Part shown: positions 1,783 to 63,057 of the stretch, piece after piece
How the letters are laid out: the number at the start of each line of letters is the position of its first letter
Numbering within the stretch: position 1 is the first letter of the stretch
DNA from: a virus
Lineage: Duplodnaviria > Heunggongvirae > Uroviricota > Caudoviricetes
Length of the DNA stretch: 63,057 bases
Direction: 5' to 3' (one strand)
Virus record (IMG/VR): IMGVR_UViG_3300014205_000184
Span: 67,162-130,218 of that record
Position numbers and translations under genes: made by a program
The notes under the pieces: generated by a model
What the model was told of the DNA's origin: nothing
Database searches by the model: none
What the model saw: the letters and a program-made list of their open reading frames with translations, nothing else

Positions 1783-4569
1783 TTAGGTATAGGCTATCGC
1801 TAACCAATTTAATGTACCACTTGGGTCAAGCGCACAATAGCACCCATAACAATTTACTACACTACACAAATTACTACTTGCGCATGAATCGGCAGCACCC
1901 GATGCGGCGCAATAACAAACTATCTGACATATCCCATAAATACAGTTCATATTATTGTCATAATAATCATAATTCATCATATTATAACCACGACAAATCA
2001 TCTCTGCAAAAGCAAAACTGCAACAATATGACGTATTACCTACTATCATATTACAATCAACTCGTGTTGTTGATTGTGTTTGCCCGTTAACCATATTACA
2101 AATTATACTCATTCCCGGAGCTGTTATCCTTGAAATAGTGCATACCCCATTAGGATACGCCCAACCTGACTGAGATTTGCAAACAGATACAGAATAATAT
2201 AAACATGTACAGTAAATAGTACCAGATGGTGACGCTCCAAAAGTTATAGTTCCTGACTGGGTGCAACACCCCTCATCATAACCACCTAAACACATCATAC
2301 CTAAATTACATGAAGATGCATTACATGTCACACAGCAACATGTAAACGTAGATGAGCATACTCCACTATTGGTATATGTTAAACTTACTTGATGCGCCAT
2401 AACCACCCACGTCGCCATGCATGGGAACGTCATTGCGGCGTATGTATTAGACGTTGACTTTATCTCACCAACACTAGAATGAGGTTGTACGTATTCATAG
2501 CAACACGCTCCCTCCCAAACATCAGGGTCAGCAGTTGATGTTTTATAACATATCGCATAGCACAATGTTCCATAACAGTAACAATCGGGAGCCGCACCAT
2601 TACACCAATACTGAAAATTAAATCTAAAACACGATGCGCACGTACATGCTTCCGTAGTTGCACACGCATCCATAGCTATATTTTTAGCTATTTCATTACT
2701 TGCGCCACTAGCTAATTCCAATAAAGCATGTATGACAAAACAATACCCATAGCATGTTGCACTCGTAACATAGCACTCTGGTGTATCATTATAAACATTC
2801 CACCTTTGATTTTGTGCTGATTGAGCGGCCGCATAACTACATAAAGATTTTACACTAACTATAACATTAGGCGCAACCTTCCAACCATTAAGTTCAACAA
2901 CACATCCAGTATCAGCAGTGCCACTAGCTATTCTTTTAACATACGGAACAGAACCAAGTTCATCATTAAATCTTAACATACCAGCATCTATGTACGAATA
3001 ACAGCAAGAGCAAAGTGGGTTATCAAATTTTGCTTCATTTGCCTGTATGCATCCATTCTGTATATTAACTCTACGATAAGCTCCACTCCCACTCCCAACA
3101 CCGCTTCCTACGCTGTATAACCCACCTTTAAGATAAGCATTGTTTGTATATATTCCAGAACCTGTGAGATATCCTCCAAATGCAGAATCATAGATACCCT
3201 CTAACGTCCCAATTCTTGCTCTTATATTGTAATCATTATACATAGCTGAATCTCTTTTATAAACATCAATAAAAGGTGAGTATGCAGATGATGCATCTAA
3301 CGATATAAACCCGGTTGTGCTACCAGTAGTTGTTAAACTTGATACTTTACCGTATGATACAACAGCAGTACCTTTATTCCATGATGGGTATGATAATCCA
3401 GAACCAGAATATGTGTTAGCTAAATCACGGTTAATATTATATGTTGGAGCAGATGAGATATTAGTAATCATGAAATATTCATCATTATTACCGTCTTTCA
3501 TACGCAACACTTCGTTTTCTGCAAATACTGGGTCATCAACTGTTATTGTGGTAGACGCATCGTTTATATCCGTTGCTAATACTGATGAATTACTAACAAC
3601 AAGTTTACCGCCAACTGCTGATACTTTATCATATTCAAATACTGAACTGCTTAATCTACCTCTAACACGTACATTCTCAAACTCAGCATACCCTGTATCT
3701 TTTATTTGGAACCCACTATGTTCACTAATAAAATTTGTACTCTGTATAGAGTTTCCTGTTATGGATATATTCCCAACTCGTGCTTCTGAAGTACCGAATT
3801 TAGCAACTAACGCCCCACCGTCATCGTAAAAGAAACTACCGTATCTATTCAACTTCGCTACGATATTTTTACTAGTAGACAATAATCTTAACTCTTTACT
3901 ATCTAACTCAAGCGTACCTTGTGTGTTTGTAATTTTTAAATCTTCACTAAGTCTTACATTGCCTATAAGATTATCAGCTAATATTTTACCGATACTATCT
4001 CTTAGAACAGCTATTGAATCATCATCTAAAACTGTATCTTCATCAAAGAACGCATCTCTACCAGATACAATCCAACCATCATGCCCAGTATCGGGTTTAT
4101 CATCTTGTATATTTACGGTTACTCCTGGAACAGGGACTATAATTCTACCAAGTCTTAACTTATCATCATATTTACTTGGGTCAACTGATACTTTTAAACC
4201 ATCAAAATTAACATAAAACACTGGTGTTTGCCCATCAAACGGGACGCTTAATCTCATAGACTCGACATTTTCAAGATGATGCCCCGCTACAACACCAGCC
4301 CCTGAAGAAACATTGATATAATTATCTGGTGGGTTAGACGCTGTTATTTCAAATCCCCAATCGATATATGGTACAACGAGTTGGTTAAGACTTGTAACCA
4401 ACTCAGTAACTATCTGTGTAGTTTCATCTGGGGTAACACTTTTACTAGACGAAAAAGGCTGTGATGCGTTATAATACGTAGATGAAGTCGTTGCTCCAGG
4501 TAAAGTAGTATTAGCATACTTTTCTATAAGCCCAATAACTAACTGGTCTAATGATTTATATGTCTTCAT
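1783..4569 (-). CDS. Tail fibre / receptor-binding protein with Cys-rich C-terminal half
   Basis: 928 aa at the distal end of the tail module; beta-rich fibre-like sequence (GYAEFENVRVRG); terminal GTLNWLAIAY resembles fibre tip domains; ~48 Cys all after residue 506. Confidence 0.72.
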   Translation of the reverse strand: MKTYKSLDQLVIGLIEKYANTTLPGATTSSTYYNASQPFSSSKSVTPDETTQIVTELVTSLNQLVVPYIDWGFEITASNPPDNYINVSSGAGVVAGHHLENVESMRLSVPFDGQTPVFYVNFDGLKVSVDPSKYDDKLRLGRIIVPVPGVTVNIQDDKPDTGHDGWIVSGRDAFFDEDTVLDDDSIAVLRDSIGKILADNLIGNVRLSEDLKITNTQGTLELDSKELRLLSTSKNIVAKLNRYGSFFYDDGGALVAKFGTSEARVGNISITGNSIQSTNFISEHSGFQIKDTGYAEFENVRVRGRLSSSVFEYDKVSAVGGKLVVSNSSVLATDINDASTTITVDDPVFAENEVLRMKDGNNDEYFMITNISSAPTYNINRDLANTYSGSGLSYPSWNKGTAVVSYGKVSSLTTTGSTTGFISLDASSAYSPFIDVYKRDSAMYNDYNIRARIGTLEGIYDSAFGGYLTGSGIYTNNAYLKGGLYSVGSGVGSGSGAYRRVNIQNGCIQANEAKFDNPLCSCCYSYIDAGMLRFNDELGSVPYVKRIASGTADTGCVVELNGWKVAPNVIVSVKSLCSYAAAQSAQNQRWNVYNDTPECYVTSATCYGYCFVIHALLELASGASNEIAKNIAMDACATTEACTCASCFRFNFQYWCNGAAPDCYCYGTLCYAICYKTSTADPDVWEGACCYEYVQPHSSVGEIKSTSNTYAAMTFPCMATWVVMAHQVSLTYTNSGVCSSTFTCCCVTCNASSCNLGMMCLGGYDEGCCTQSGTITFGASPSGTIYCTCLYYSVSVCKSQSGWAYPNGVCTISRITAPGMSIICNMVNGQTQSTTRVDCNMIVGNTSYCCSFAFAEMICRGYNMMNYDYYDNNMNCIYGICQIVCYCAASGAADSCASSNLCSVVNCYGCYCALDPSGTLNWLAIAYT

Positions 4570-60579: not shown

Positions 60580-60831
60580 TTACTCCTTAACTACTTCATA
60601 AATATGCTTAAAATATCTTGATTTACATACTCTTACACCACAATCTTCATCTTTAAAAATATAATCATTTTTAGAAGCATATACTCTACCATAGTCTGTA
60701 TCTAACCCTATCTTTTTACCGCACACCCACGCCTGACCATCACCCTTAATAAATTCTACAATATCATCATAATTAAGTCCTGTATACTGAATAGCATCAA
60801 ATTCATAATTGATTTTCTTTCTAATTTTCAT
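60580..60831 (-). CDS. Hypothetical protein
   Basis: FDAIQYTGLN...ASKNDYIFK...CKSRYF. Confidence 0.65.
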   Translation of the reverse strand: MKIRKKINYEFDAIQYTGLNYDDIVEFIKGDGQAWVCGKKIGLDTDYGRVYASKNDYIFKDEDCGVRVCKSRYFKHIYEVVKE

Positions 60832-61475
60832 AGTATCTTCTTCTCCTCTTCTTCAAGCCTCTTTACTGATAATTTATGCGTCGCCTCATCTATCTCACTC
60901 CCAAAATAATCTCTGCCCGTCCGTAAACACGCTACCGCCGTTGTCCCGCTTCCCATAAAACAGTCATACACCGTATCGCCTTTATTCGTGAAATTCTTCA
61001 CACACCTCTCTACTATATCCGTAGGGAATCCATAGCTATACCCATCATACTTATCATTATCTACTCTCCACACATCGTACTCATAATCGTCATTATGATT
61101 CTGCTTAATCTTACCTTTCCCAAACGACATCACAAATGAATAATTTAACCTATATAAATTCCTCTTATCAGACTTATTCCATATCTTCTGACTTATATAC
61201 TTATACCCTAACTCATGCATTATCCTTATTATCTCAGCATGTTTCTCAATTACCCCACCATCATACTTCCTATCCGTAATAGCAACCGTAACCGCACCCG
61301 TCTCAATCTTAAACCCTTTAAACACTCTCTCAAGAAAGTCTAAATACTTACCCCAATCTTTACCCGGGTTCCACCCTAACTCATCAAAATCAGGCGGTCC
61401 GCAAAACACATAATTATACCAAATCTCATTCTTATGCATCGTAGTTAAACAGTCTTCTAACAATAATTTACCCAT
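60828..61475 (-). CDS. DNA N6-adenine/N4-cytosine methyltransferase (beta class) with atypical GPPD motif
   Basis: EDCL...VFCGPPD (motif IV position); FPTDIVERCV...VYDCFMGSGTTAVAC...YFGSEI (motif I). Confidence 0.85.
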   Translation of the reverse strand: MGKLLLEDCLTTMHKNEIWYNYVFCGPPDFDELGWNPGKDWGKYLDFLERVFKGFKIETGAVTVAITDRKYDGGVIEKHAEIIRIMHELGYKYISQKIWNKSDKRNLYRLNYSFVMSFGKGKIKQNHNDDYEYDVWRVDNDKYDGYSYGFPTDIVERCVKNFTNKGDTVYDCFMGSGTTAVACLRTGRDYFGSEIDEATHKLSVKRLEEEEKKIL

Positions 61476-61687
61476 TATCTCCCCTTCTCATACTTCCCAC
61501 ACTCTTTACACACCATCATATCTTCCTTAAACTCGCAATCACTAACCTTACTCTCCCTGCCCTCGACAAAGTGACCGCACGTTAAACACGATTTATAGTA
61601 CCTCTTCGTGAACTTACGCAACGAACCACTCACCGGTTGCTCCGTAAAACTATATGTCGGCGTATAGCCACCTACTGTTTTCTTCAT
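61475..61687 (-). CDS. Small zinc-binding hypothetical protein (start reassigned to 61687)
   Basis: CLTCGH...CKECGK; the annotated TTG start lies in a promoter -35 box. Confidence 0.45.
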   Translation of the reverse strand: MKKTVGGYTPTYSFTEQPVSGSLRKFTKRYYKSCLTCGHFVEGRESKVSDCEFKEDMMVCKECGKYEKGR

Positions 61688-61697
61688 GATTAAACAC

Positions 61698-61726
61698 AGT
61701 ATATCATAAAACAACATCTTTGTCAA
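61698..61726 (-). promoter_or_regulatory. Sigma70-type promoter heading the leftward transcript
   Basis: TTGACA-17 nt-TATACT with extended -10 TG. Confidence 0.85.
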
Positions 61727-61812
61727 GTAAAATTTAAAATAATTTGTTAACCACTACTCCAACTTGAGCAGGGAGAAGCGAGTATTTACACCTTATAATA
61801 GATACCCAGACA

Positions 61813-61973
61813 TTCAACTATAACGCTTCAACACCCAGGTCTTAAATATTACACCTTGACACTCATGCCTTGAGTCTTGAGTCTTGAGTTTTGTATCTCG
61901 ATTCTTGTGCGTTAGGTCTTGTGTCTCGGGACTTGCGCATTACGCATTAATTCTTAGGTCTCGGGGCTCTGGT
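61813..61973. repeat. Degenerate 7-nt periodic array (~23 units; CTTGAGT x3 core)
   Basis: Units in register: cccaggt cttaaat attacac cttgaca ctcatgc cttgagt cttgagt cttgagt tttgtat ctcgatt cttgtgc gttaggt cttgtgt ctcggga cttgcgc attacgc attaatt cttaggt ctcgggg ctctggt. Confidence 0.8.
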
Positions 61974-62280
61974 GAAGCGGATTATGATGCATATAATGAA
62001 GTATATATATGATATACTAGTGTAGAAAAAAACTGGACCACTCCGTGTAAGATACAGTAGACGTGTGAAATCGCAGAAAAAGAAAAATTCTCGTCGAGAA
62101 AAAACGTGGGGGGATATTTAATACTTTCGTGAGTCAAAAATTTTTTGATTTAAAATTAAATATAATTTATATCAATATATATTAAGTAAAAAAAATTATA
62201 ATAAAATGTCTTTTGTCAAGTATTATTTTAAAATAAATTTAATTTTGATTTTTCAAAGTGATTATGTTTTTCAAAGTATC

Positions 62281-62308
62281 TTGACTAAAAGTATATATAT
62301 GATATACT
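62281..62308 (+). promoter_or_regulatory. Sigma70-type rightward promoter
   Basis: TTGACT-16 nt-TATACT with extended -10 TG; GTATATATATGATATACT also occurs at 62001-62018. Confidence 0.72.
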
Positions 62309-62501
62309 CTATACAGAAGTATAAAAGAAGTTCATTCAAAGATAAGCAAGTAAAAAATAAGTAGCTTAAAGCATAATACGTTGAGCGACAACGAAAAACA
62401 ATAAGCAAAAAAAATAAATGCTTGCAGTTTAGAAAAATAAAAACAGAATAAAAAAATATACTTTTGTTTTTTATATAGTCACAGAGAGAGAGTAAAAAAT
62501 C

Positions 62502-63057
62502 GTGAAAACTTCAATAATGAAGATTGATAAGATGATGTCAAAGATATACAATGACGAGCAACGATTAAAAGATAAAATCGCTATATATAAAAACGATAAA
62601 AGAATTATAGCGATAAGACTTGACGTTGAGCGTGATTTCACTATAAAAAATAATGAAGTCACTTTTAACGTGTATAAACAATTTGTCAATCGTATTGAGA
62701 TTGTCAACTATAAAGTTGACAAAGAATTGACAAGCAAGTTGAAAAGTTCTGATACGAAAAAAGAATTTTCTAACTTGTTAAATGAGCACGTTGCAAACGT
62801 CATAGAAGTGCTAGACAAAAGCACAACAACAACACGTGAAACTTGCACGTTAAGAAAACGTTTTGCGAAATTCTTTTTTAATGTAACGAAAGACAAAAAA
62901 TTCGTTACGTTTGAAGAAGATAGCGAAAAACAAGTTGCAGAAGTTGTCAAAGTGACAAAAGTAAAAGCTAAGTCGAAAGACAAGACAAGCGCAAAAGCTA
63001 AGTCACAGCACGATAACATCGCAAAAGCTAAAAGCGCAAAAGCTAAAAGCGCAAAAG
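62502..63057 (+). CDS. Rightward gene, partial; 185 codons with no Gly, Pro or Trp; Lys/Ala-rich tail
   Basis: GAGAGAGAG SD-like stretch, GTG at 62502, open to the window end (MKTSIMKIDKMMSK...AKAKSAKAKSAK); absent from the ORF track because it has no stop. Confidence 0.8.
   Translation, partial: MKTSIMKIDKMMSKIYNDEQRLKDKIAIYKNDKRIIAIRLDVERDFTIKNNEVTFNVYKQFVNRIEIVNYKVDKELTSKLKSSDTKKEFSNLLNEHVANVIEVLDKSTTTTRETCTLRKRFAKFFFNVTKDKKFVTFEEDSEKQVAEVVKVTKVKAKSKDKTSAKAKSQHDNIAKAKSAKAKSAK

What the first reader, a model, noticed from the sequence alone, without database searches (positions are those of the whole stretch)
62114..63057. 944 nt with zero GG or CC dinucleotides, even at the cost of Gly, Pro and Trp
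Seen: immediately after the G6 run neither GG nor CC occurs to the window end. My rough estimate from local base composition is about 30 expected. The promoter region and the 185-codon gene both comply, so the protein has no Gly, Pro or Trp. Palindromes such as ACGT, AGCT and CACGTG remain, so this is not general restriction-site avoidance. Inference A: this is the first-injected DNA, purged of GG/CC-containing targets (NGG, CC or CCN PAMs; CC/GG-containing restriction or phosphorothioate sites). Inference B: the phage puts a bulky modification on GG/CC contexts, and the leading region must stay unmodified for host RNA polymerase. I know of no description of such a strict rule but could not search.
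Basis: partly seen in the sequence, partly recalled or inferred. Interest (0 to 1): 0.9.

Follow-up and report, generated by a model that had tools for sequence, protein, structure and literature searches.

The report
GG/CC-free immediate-early phage cassette
One small, first-expressed gene cassette of an uncultured 130-kb phage, and the matching cassette in its relatives, contains no GG or CC on either DNA strand, so its proteins lack glycine, proline and tryptophan; this implies that some unidentified factor reads that two-letter DNA word.

Summary
The window end is an assembly cut: the contig ends overlap by 38 bp. The tract runs on into the start of the genome and is 1,508 nt long, with 0 GG/CC against about 56 expected. 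The next longest GG/CC-free run in the 130-kb genome is 191 nt.

The tract is a complete unit: host-type promoters, a 187-codon gene with a Lys-rich tail, a 78-codon gene, a terminator and 11-nt repeats. Conserved GG/CC-rich elements bound it: a G6-9 run upstream and ATCGGAAG..TAGTCCCGG repeats downstream.

Three other lineages carry the same cassette at the same position: 0 of 28, 4 of 54 and 3 of 39 expected GG/CC. In one of them the cargo protein is not detectably related, yet also lacks Gly, Pro and Trp. A GC-richer relative has lost the trait. Selection is therefore continuing, tied to the locus, and acts on DNA.

Six of the seven tolerated exceptions lie in CGTCC.

Inference B (own GG/CC modification) has no support.

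The reading factor is unknown; a CC/NGG-type CRISPR PAM is my leading guess. This scan has already noted the same trait on unrelated phage DNA (Rhizobium phage-plasmids and others).

The parts
61706..61726 (-). Host-type promoter (TTGACA, 17 nt, TGATATACT family) that drives the minus-strand gene block leftwards, away from the tract
   Evidence: Motif scan, (genome 128867-128887); sequence
61869..61965 (.). GG/CC-containing repeat region upstream of the tract: 3 copies of CTTGAGT and 2 copies of GTCTCGGG. The GTCTCGGG motif recurs in L005 and L008
62010..62018 (+). Extended -10 element (TGATATACT) of promoter P1, upstream of the G run. Present in L008 and L093, degraded in L005
62035..62060 (.). 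Conserved block (GGACCA.TCCGTG...AGTAG) shared by the window, L005, L008 and L093. No conserved RNA fold, so probably a protein-binding DNA site
   Evidence: Alignment; fold_alignment (0 compensatory pairs)
62091..62113 (.). Conserved TCGTCGAGAAA box followed by the G6 run (62108-62113). The run is G7 in L005, L007 and L008 and G9 in L093. It is the upstream boundary of the tract and a candidate cos-like or barrier element
62114..63057 (.). Window part of the GG/CC-free tract. It continues across the contig junction to L001:600 and totals 1,508 nt
62281..62308 (+). Promoter P2 inside the tract: TTGACT, 16 nt, extended -10 TGATATACT. Conserved in L005, L008 and L093 and followed by a leader of about 190 nt
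62484..62492 (+). GG-less purine-rich ribosome-binding site (GAGAGAGAG) of gene A; L005 has the same. About 70% of other long frames in the genome have a GG-containing Shine-Dalgarno sequence
62502..63057 (+). Gene A: 187 codons, of which the last two and the stop lie across the junction. No Gly, Pro or Trp. Folded alpha/beta core of about 135 residues plus a disordered Lys/Ala/Ser tail encoded by 15-nt tandem repeats. No known family or fold

Best explanation
The tract is a conserved, self-contained immediate-early cassette at a fixed genome position. Its order is: G-run boundary, tandem host-type promoters, long leader, one or two small cargo genes, an intrinsic terminator, then a repeat-rich non-coding boundary. 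Purifying selection on the DNA itself removes every GG/CC step from it. This overrides codon choice, codon junctions, the Shine-Dalgarno sequence and even amino-acid composition. Those points are shown.

The rest is inferred. The cassette is probably the DNA that must function while a factor that recognises a very short GG/CC-containing word on duplex DNA is still active. The most plausible candidate is a host defence, with a CC/CCN or NGG CRISPR PAM leading and a short-motif nuclease as the alternative. The cassette's product(s) would then be the counter-measure or take-over function.

Sites of 4-6 bp (GATC, CGCG, GCAGC, CTGCAG) can be purged from the whole genome, and they are. A 2-bp word occurs about 7,900 times and cannot be purged genome-wide without giving up Gly, Pro and Trp. 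So only the cassette that has to work first is purged. This is the logic of T5 first-step-transfer DNA in miniature.
For: 1. Strength and sharpness: 0 against 56 expected over 1,508 nt, while every other window of that size holds at least 52. All five segments (5' non-coding, gene A, spacer, gene B, 3' non-coding) are clean.
2. DNA level and strand-symmetric: both GG and CC are absent, including DNA beyond the terminator. Of 57 codons in gene A that precede a G-starting codon, none ends in G, and AAG is never used there. The ribosome-binding sites avoid GG.
3. Conservation under divergence: L005 has 0 against 28 expected, L008 has 4 against 54, and L093 has 3 against 39. The window and L005 differ at 180 of 522 aligned gene positions. 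Some 14-17% of random substitutions would create GG/CC, yet none is present.
4. Tied to the locus, not the protein: in L093 the cargo is a 203-aa protein with no detectable homology to gene A (hhalign probability 1%). It also has no Gly, Pro or Trp, and it sits between the same boundaries and next to the same neighbours. The neighbouring methyltransferase is 63-65% identical across lineages, and a DPBB/membrane gene lies downstream.
5. Natural control: the GC-richer relative L011 (protein 56% identical) has 26 GG/CC in 513 nt.
6. The phage demonstrably evolves by target avoidance: GATC 0 against 384 expected, CGCG 7 against 136, CTGCAG 0.
7. Precedent: T5-like phages are hit by restriction-modification and CRISPR systems only when the site or protospacer lies in the first-step-transfer DNA. 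That DNA is followed by a repeat-rich non-coding region (PMC10644984; bioRxiv 10.1101/866236). PAM depletion, including the CC PAM of type I-F, is documented genome-wide in phages (PMC4246573, PMC12174588).
8. Gene A evolves much faster than its neighbour (31% against 63% identity between the window and L008), as arms-race proteins do.
Against: The host, its CRISPR type and its PAM are unknown. The best match of the phage Gmd gene is uninformative.

No evidence places the tract at a physical DNA end or shows stepwise entry. A Logan contig of run X2 reads straight across the G run.

Genome-wide loss of GATC and CGCG shows that the rest of the genome is exposed to restriction. Any protection the cassette provides is therefore not general, unlike in T5.

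Genes A and B match no known anti-defence, Pfam or PHROG family and no solved fold.

Six of seven tolerated exceptions sit in CGTCC. A simple two-letter PAM does not predict this.

A CRISPR cut elsewhere in the genome would still kill the phage, unless entry is stepwise or the factor acts reversibly.
Confidence: 0.45

Rival explanations
1. The factor that reads GG/CC belongs to the phage. It could be a DNA modification or a host-DNA-degrading nuclease or nickase with a very short CC/GG-containing site, as in chlorella-virus Nt.CviPII (CCD) with its methyltransferase. The cassette is kept free of sites so that it stays unmodified or uncut and can be expressed throughout infection.
For: An N6/N4 DNA methyltransferase is the most conserved neighbour of the cassette (63-65% identity). 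It has an unusual, conserved GPPD motif in place of D/S/NPPY. The tolerated exceptions are almost all one word, CGTCC, as expected if one specific context is protected or not recognised. Another reader of this scan proposed the phage's own guanine modification for a similar case (e1-5370424).
Against: No TGT/DpdA, QueC or thymidylate-synthase-family gene is present. Genome-wide loss of GATC, CGCG and GCAGC shows the DNA is not generally shielded. Other units with the same host-type promoter carry normal GG/CC. No nuclease was identified in or next to the cassette. The relative L011 lost the trait together with a GC shift, which looks like a host change.
Confidence: 0.2
2. The constraint is physical or architectural. 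The cassette lies beside the packaging site (cos/pac) or the replication origin. GG/CC steps favour the A form and stabilise the duplex, so they are excluded so that this DNA melts, bends or threads easily during ejection, packaging termination or initiation.
For: The tract is 27% GC and rich in A-tracts. It is flanked by iteron-like repeats (7 copies of an 11-nt unit; 3 copies of ATCGGAG..TAGTCCCGGG) and by a conserved G run typical of GC-rich cohesive ends in AT-rich phages. It sits at the head of the block that contains the virion genes.
Against: G and C are not avoided as such: CG and GC are 1.8-fold enriched and gene A is 32% GC. No known physical requirement forbids one dinucleotide step absolutely across 1.0-1.5 kb of coding DNA. 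The relative L011 keeps the downstream repeat motif but not the ban.
Confidence: 0.12
3. Selection acts on the RNA. The early transcript avoids GG and CC to escape a ribonuclease, an RNA-modifying toxin or Rho (which binds YC-rich RNA), or to be translated without Shine-Dalgarno pairing.
For: Most of the tract could be transcribed from P1 or P2. Ribosome-binding sites lack GG. Long leaders with terminator-like hairpins suggest RNA-level regulation.
Against: The ban is strand-symmetric. It covers about 190 nt beyond the bidirectional terminator, and the boundary at L001:600 matches no RNA feature. The opposite-strand transcript of the downstream gene crosses both GG/CC-rich and GG/CC-free DNA. 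TC, the other Rho-bound dinucleotide, is not avoided (observed/expected 0.85).
Confidence: 0.08
4. It is chance, low-complexity composition or an assembly artefact.
For: The tract is AT-rich, and the contig was cut inside it.
Against: The Poisson probability is about 1e-24. None of 2,000 shuffles fell below 37. The same DNA is held by runs from two studies (landfill 2018, groundwater 2022) and by a second assembly. Four diverged lineages from other samples show the trait. In about 310 kb of control phage and bacterial loci the longest GG/CC-free run is 187 nt.
Confidence: 0.01

Closest known systems
First-step-transfer (pre-early) DNA of phage T5 and other Tequintavirus phages
   Same: Both are a short leading unit with host promoters and small take-over genes, followed by a long, conserved, repeat-rich non-coding region. 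In T5, restriction-modification, CRISPR-Cas and Ssp systems act only if their site or protospacer lies in this DNA, so avoidance is selected locally (PMC10644984; bioRxiv 10.1101/866236).
   Different: The T5 region is about 8-10 kb, lies in a terminal repeat, and has demonstrated two-step entry; here 1.0-1.5 kb is involved and nothing about entry is known. T5 lacks particular 4-8-bp sites, not a dinucleotide. T5 does not purge sites from the rest of its genome, whereas this phage does (GATC, CGCG). The proteins share no homology.
PAM depletion in phage genomes (Kupczok and Bollback 2014, PMC4246573; CC PAM of type I-F in Pseudomonas phages, PMC12174588)
   Same: Both involve selection against a 2-3-nt word on either strand, including exactly CC/GG, beyond what codon bias and composition explain.
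   Different: Published depletion is mild, statistical and genome-wide. Here it is absolute, confined to one cassette, and strong enough to remove three amino acids. The host and its PAM are unknown.
Leading end of phage T7 (A1-A3 promoters and gene 0.3/ocr)
   Same: In both, strong host promoters and an anti-defence first gene sit on the first DNA to enter, which is expressed before the rest of the genome is exposed. (The T7 side rests on my own knowledge.)
   Different: T7 has no dinucleotide ban. Ocr is an acidic DNA mimic, whereas gene A is basic with a Lys-rich tail. Terminal position is unproven here.
GG/CC-free early operons noted earlier in this scan (Rhizobium phage-plasmids and related phages: e1-3543736, e1-5352931, e1-5397033, e1-5373347, e1-1700253)
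   Same: Both show a transcription unit of about 1-1.4 kb without GG/CC and with Gly/Pro/Trp-free proteins, conserved among relatives. Some lineages also have context-specific exceptions.
   Different: The phage group is unrelated: no look-alike was found by sequence or by place. The habitat differs (landfill and groundwater), the genome is AT-rich, and the exception word differs (CGTCC here, CGGW there). Those notes are unchecked by me.

Membership tests
T5-type first-step-transfer DNA | Lies at the leading physical end (terminal repeat) of the virion DNA | not testable with these tools
   Only Logan contigs, not raw reads, were available. The 38-bp 'terminal repeat' of the record is an assembly overlap.
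T5-type first-step-transfer DNA | Host-promoter-driven pre-early genes followed by a conserved, repeat-rich non-coding region (injection stop signal) | tested here: met
   Conserved TTGACA/TGATATACT promoters, a terminator, 7 copies of an 11-nt repeat and 3 copies of ATCGGAG..TAGTCCCGGG; the repeat motif is conserved in L005, L008, L011 and L093. Its function as a stop signal is untested.
T5-type first-step-transfer DNA | Homologues of the T5 pre-early proteins (A1, A2, Dmp) | tested here: not met
   Genes A and B match no PHROG or Pfam family at E <= 0.01.
CRISPR PAM depletion | The depleted word equals the PAM of a CRISPR-Cas type carried by the host | not testable with these tools
   The host is unknown. 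The best genome match of the phage Gmd gene is spread over many phyla.
CRISPR PAM depletion | Depletion exceeds what composition and codon usage explain | tested here: met
   Synonymous resampling expects 11.3 and 5.3 GG/CC, observed 0 and 0; non-coding DNA expects 17.9, observed 0.
Restriction-site avoidance | The avoided words are specific 4-8-bp (often palindromic) sites, depleted genome-wide | tested here: not met
   For the tract the avoided word is a dinucleotide and the effect is local. The genome separately shows classic avoidance of GATC, CGCG, GCAGC and CTGCAG.
Exemption from phage 7-deazaguanine (DpdA) or hydroxymethyl-pyrimidine modification | The genome encodes DpdA/TGT, QueC or a thymidylate-synthase-family hydroxymethylase | tested here: not met
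   Six-frame family searches of the whole genome found nothing, while the control genomes matched. The record is estimated 74% complete.
Anti-CRISPR (acr-aca) operon | Small early proteins under a strong promoter together with an HTH Aca repressor, or homology to known Acr proteins | tested here: inconclusive
   A strong promoter and small proteins are present. No HTH or other domain was found in genes A or B. No Acr library was available.

The most novel reading that the evidence does not exclude
A widespread, still undescribed activity, either a host defence or a phage enzyme, reads the bare GG/CC step of duplex DNA, with CGTCC exempt in this group. Unrelated phages have convergently evolved first-expressed cassettes that are written entirely without that step: this AT-rich landfill/groundwater siphophage group and, according to earlier notes of this scan, Rhizobium phage-plasmids.
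Probability: 0.3. Interest if true: 0.9.

Novelty: new variant of a known kind. Interest (0 to 1): 0.78.

Why it matters
Local avoidance of defence targets in first-entering DNA is known from T5, and mild genome-wide PAM depletion is also known. An absolute ban on one dinucleotide is different. It is kept for more than 1 kb across lineages that share only 31% protein identity, and even across a swap of the cargo protein. It is strong enough to delete three amino acids and the canonical ribosome-binding site. I found no description of this in the papers I could search.

It marks, from sequence alone, which phage genes must act first, so it flags candidate anti-defence or take-over proteins of unknown family. 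It also implies a reader of a two-letter DNA word that could be identified experimentally.

The trait is easy to scan for, and this scan has now seen it in unrelated phages. It may therefore be a general signature of a first-exposed cassette.

Tried and rejected
- Close relatives in INPHARED phages: none.
- Gene A, the methyltransferase and the conserved upstream DNA block in IMG/VR contigs: no relatives. The DNA block in genome contigs: none.
- Rfam on the window end, L005 and L008: only sub-threshold chance matches.
- Conserved RNA structure for the block upstream of the G run: none, with 0 compensatory pairs.
- Fold searches with the gene A model (pLDDT 68): no match (PDB Foldseek; AFDB clusters; VIA wide, best Z 4.5; ESM Atlas by shape; by features).
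- Gene B: an orphan with no homologue outside this phage.
- Flanking direct or inverted repeats that would make the tract a mobile or invertible cassette: none of 9 nt or more beyond promoter copies.
- Host assignment from the phage Gmd gene: uninformative.
- RNA evidence: no RNA holder listed.
- Laying contigs could not show termini. One X2 contig, laid at 80% or greater likeness, carries a 4-nt insertion (GCGG) behind 62445 in an A-rich stretch. I could not tell whether it comes from this phage or from an unrelated AT-rich sequence.
- The X2 contig over 61388-63049 has depth 10.2 against 2.3-4.6 for its neighbours. It is not coterminous with the tract and I did not interpret it.
- More distant methyltransferase homologues (50% identity or less; L094-L098) lie in other contexts or at contig edges and served only as controls.
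- A parS-like reading of the single CACGTG: rejected, because it is not palindromic beyond the core and is absent from L005.

Full report
**Observation**

The last GG in the window is the end of a G6 run at 62108-62113. No GG or CC follows up to the window end. The window is the second half of a single 130,218-bp virus contig. The two contig ends overlap by an exact 38 bp, inside a 15-nt tandem repeat that encodes the tail of the gene. A second assembly of 130,247 bp carries the gene whole. The window end is therefore an assembly cut, not a DNA terminus.

Read across the junction, the GG/CC-free stretch continues to genome position 600 and is 1,508 nt long:
- Its base composition (27% GC) predicts 56 GG+CC. 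None of 2,000 mononucleotide shuffles gave fewer than 37.
- Every other 1,508-nt window of the genome has at least 52.
- The next longest GG/CC-free run is 191 nt.
- No other dinucleotide step shows such a gap.
- CG and GC are 1.8-fold enriched, so G and C are kept but never doubled.

**Anatomy**

Upstream lie:
- a promoter for the minus-strand block;
- GG/CC-rich repeats (CTTGAGT x3, GTCTCGGG x2);
- promoter P1;
- a conserved block (GGACCA.TCCGTG..AGTAG);
- a TCGTCGAGAAA box;
- the G run.

The tract then holds, in order:
- two host-type promoters, of which P2 is TTGACT, 16 nt, TGATATACT;
- a leader of about 190 nt;
- gene A (187 codons);
- gene B (78 codons; L001:135-371);
- a bidirectional intrinsic terminator with a GG/CC-free stem (L001:378-410);
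- seven copies of an 11-nt repeat (from about L001:445).

The tract ends at L001:600. It is followed by three copies of ATCGGAG..TAGTCCCGGG (L001:697-827) and by minus-strand genes that point towards the tract.

**How deep the constraint goes**

- Neither protein has Gly, Pro or Trp. From the phage's own amino-acid usage this has probability 1.6e-9 for gene A and 2e-4 for gene B.
- Given the protein sequences, synonymous resampling with the phage's codon usage still expects 11.3 and 5.3 GG/CC, against 0 and 0 observed.
- Of 57 codons in gene A that precede a G-starting codon, none ends in G. Lys AAG is used seven times, but never there.
- The 707 non-coding nt expect 17.9 GG/CC and have 0.
- The ribosome-binding sites are GG-less (GAGAGAGAG; GTGAG). 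About 70% of other long frames have a GG-containing Shine-Dalgarno sequence.
- Of 199 ORFs in the genome, only these two have no GG/CC.

**Relatives**

An exhaustive HMMER search and a profile search found only four homologues of gene A. A search through the neighbouring methyltransferase added a further lineage.

| Lineage | Relation to the window | Tract | GG/CC expected | GG/CC observed |
|---|---|---|---|---|
| L005/L006/L007 | gene A protein 65% identical | 1,042 nt after a G7 run | 28 | 0 |
| L008/L009/L010 | gene A protein 31% identical | 1,160 nt after a G7 run | 54 | 4 |
| L093 | methyltransferase 65% identical | 1,208 nt after a G9 run | 39 | 3 |

L093 has the same promoters, the same boundary motifs and the same terminator hairpin. 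Its cargo, however, is a 203-aa protein with no detectable homology to gene A (hhalign probability 1%). That protein again has no Gly, Pro or Trp and has a Lys-rich tail.

Synteny holds on both sides:
- The methyltransferase is 63-65% identical.
- The downstream membrane protein is 41% identical between the window and L008 over its N-terminal 83 residues.
- The gene in that position carries a DPBB/RlpA-like domain in the window and L093.

The window and L005 differ at 180 of 522 aligned positions of gene A. Some 14-17% of random substitutions would create a GG or CC, yet none is present.

L011, a GC-richer relative with a protein 56% identical, carries 26 GG/CC in 513 nt. The protein family can therefore be encoded normally when the constraint is lifted.

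It comprised 84 kb of other phage contigs and 80 bacterial loci.

The trait is thus real, ancient, actively maintained, and attached to the locus rather than to a protein family.

**Exceptions**

Six of the seven GG/CC that are tolerated inside the L008 and L093 tracts lie in the word CGTCC/GGACG. That word accounts for about 0.5% of all GG/CC outside the tracts. The first two CC after the L005 tract are in AGTCCG. A 13-nt string, CGTCCAGCGAAGT, is shared by L008 and L093 in different reading frames (R-P-A-K-S against A-S-S-E-V), so it is kept at the nucleic-acid level. Either this context is invisible to whatever reads GG/CC, or it is itself a needed site. I cannot decide which.

**What it is not**

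- It is not a general property of early or host-transcribed DNA. The same strong promoter occurs about ten times in the genome, in front of genes with normal GG/CC.
- It is not a footprint of a known phage hypermodification pathway. No TGT/DpdA, QueC or thymidylate-synthase-family gene is present.
- The DNA is probably ordinary at least at restriction sites. The genome has lost GATC completely (0 against 384 expected) and nearly all CGCG (7 against 136), GCAGC/GCTGC (10 in total) and CTGCAG (0).
- It is not a mobile cassette: there are no flanking repeats.
- The conserved upstream block shows no RNA fold and matches no Rfam family.
- The gene A model (pLDDT 68; the core is confident, the tail disordered) matches no solved or predicted fold. 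Gene B is an orphan.

**Interpretation**

The ban is strand-symmetric. It includes DNA outside the mapped transcription unit, and its boundaries coincide with conserved DNA motifs. It therefore acts on duplex DNA.

The phage clearly uses target avoidance as its main escape route. It can purge 4-6-bp sites everywhere, but a 2-bp word occurs about 7,900 times and is needed to encode Gly, Pro and Trp. So it can be purged only from a short cassette.

The most economical reading is that this cassette has to work while a GG/CC-dependent activity is still unopposed. That would make it the first-exposed, first-expressed DNA, which encodes the counter-measure.

The documented precedent is T5. There, restriction-modification, CRISPR-Cas and Ssp systems act only on targets in the first-step-transfer DNA, which ends in a conserved repeat-rich non-coding region (PMC10644984; bioRxiv 10.1101/866236).

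The only known defence determinant as short and strand-indifferent as GG/CC is a CRISPR PAM: CC for type I-F, CCN for some type I-B and I-A systems, and NGG for some Cas9 proteins (the latter two from my own knowledge). PAM depletion in phages is published, but it is weak and genome-wide (PMC4246573, PMC12174588). Spacers from first-injected DNA are reported to give the best immunity (cited in PMC10076291).

The G-rich run at the boundary, and the orientation of the virion-gene block away from it, would fit a cos-like end with the cassette packaged last and ejected first. This is inference only.

Against the model:
- The host and its PAM are unknown.
- Entry order is unknown.
- Genome-wide loss of restriction sites shows that any protection the cassette gives is not general.
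- The CGTCC exceptions are unexplained.

I put 0.45 on this reading. The rivals are 0.2 for a phage-encoded reader (modification or nuclease, with the conserved neighbouring methyltransferase as a lead), about 0.1 each for a physical/architectural and for an RNA-level explanation, and about 0.01 for artefact.

**Relation to earlier notes of this scan**

The same trait was noted before on other DNA: Rhizobium phage-plasmids and relatives (e1-3543736, e1-5352931, e1-5397033, e1-5373347, e1-1700253), with related bans on other dinucleotides in jumbo phages (e1-5370424). I did not check those. Look-ups by sequence and by place found no link to this phage. If those notes hold, this is an independent lineage with the same solution. 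The DpdA idea from e1-5370424 was tested here and is not supported for this genome.

Noticed in passing
whole genome (window 1-63057 and L001-L004): GATC is completely absent from 130 kb (384 expected). CGCG occurs 7 times (136 expected), GCAGC/GCTGC 10 times and CTGCAG never. Many other palindromes are depleted. This is an extreme case of restriction-site avoidance.
   Followed up: partly
window 60828-61475 (-); L008:247-891 (-); L093:5947-6597 (+): A small N6/N4 DNA methyltransferase is the most conserved neighbour of the cassette (63-65% identity). It has a conserved GPPD(F) in place of the usual D/S/NPPY catalytic motif. Its specificity is unknown.
   Followed up: partly
L008:2359, 2502, 2704, 3021; L093:4414, 4771: Nearly all tolerated GG/CC inside the relatives' tracts are in the word CGTCC. 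A 13-nt string, CGTCCAGCGAAGT, is shared by L008 and L093 in different reading frames.
   Followed up: partly
window 62960-63057 and L001:1-38: A 15-nt tandem repeat encodes the AKAKS repeats of the gene A tail. The contig was cut here, and the copy number may be collapsed in the assembly.
   Followed up: no
L001:445-521 and L001:697-827: Seven tandem copies of an 11-nt unit (CAGCACGATTA) lie inside the tract. Three copies of ATCGGAG..TAGTCCCGGG lie just outside it, and that motif is conserved in L005, L008, L011 and L093. It may be an origin, a packaging site or an injection-stop element.
   Followed up: partly
window 61388-63049 (run X2): The Logan contig covering the cassette and about 700 nt upstream has word depth 10.2, against 2.3-4.6 for neighbouring contigs. 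The cause could be shared sequence among strains, higher copy number or sequencing bias.
   Followed up: no
L002:6765-8600 (+): A second N6/N4 methyltransferase gene is interrupted by an intein that has HNH and HTH parts.
   Followed up: no
L005:640-720; L008:2320-2340, 2515-2540 and 3110-3135: The leaders upstream of the cargo gene carry terminator-like hairpins. In L008 a sequence of about 25 nt in the leader is the inverted complement of one just after the stop codon. This suggests attenuation or pairing between the 5' and 3' ends of the mRNA.
   Followed up: no
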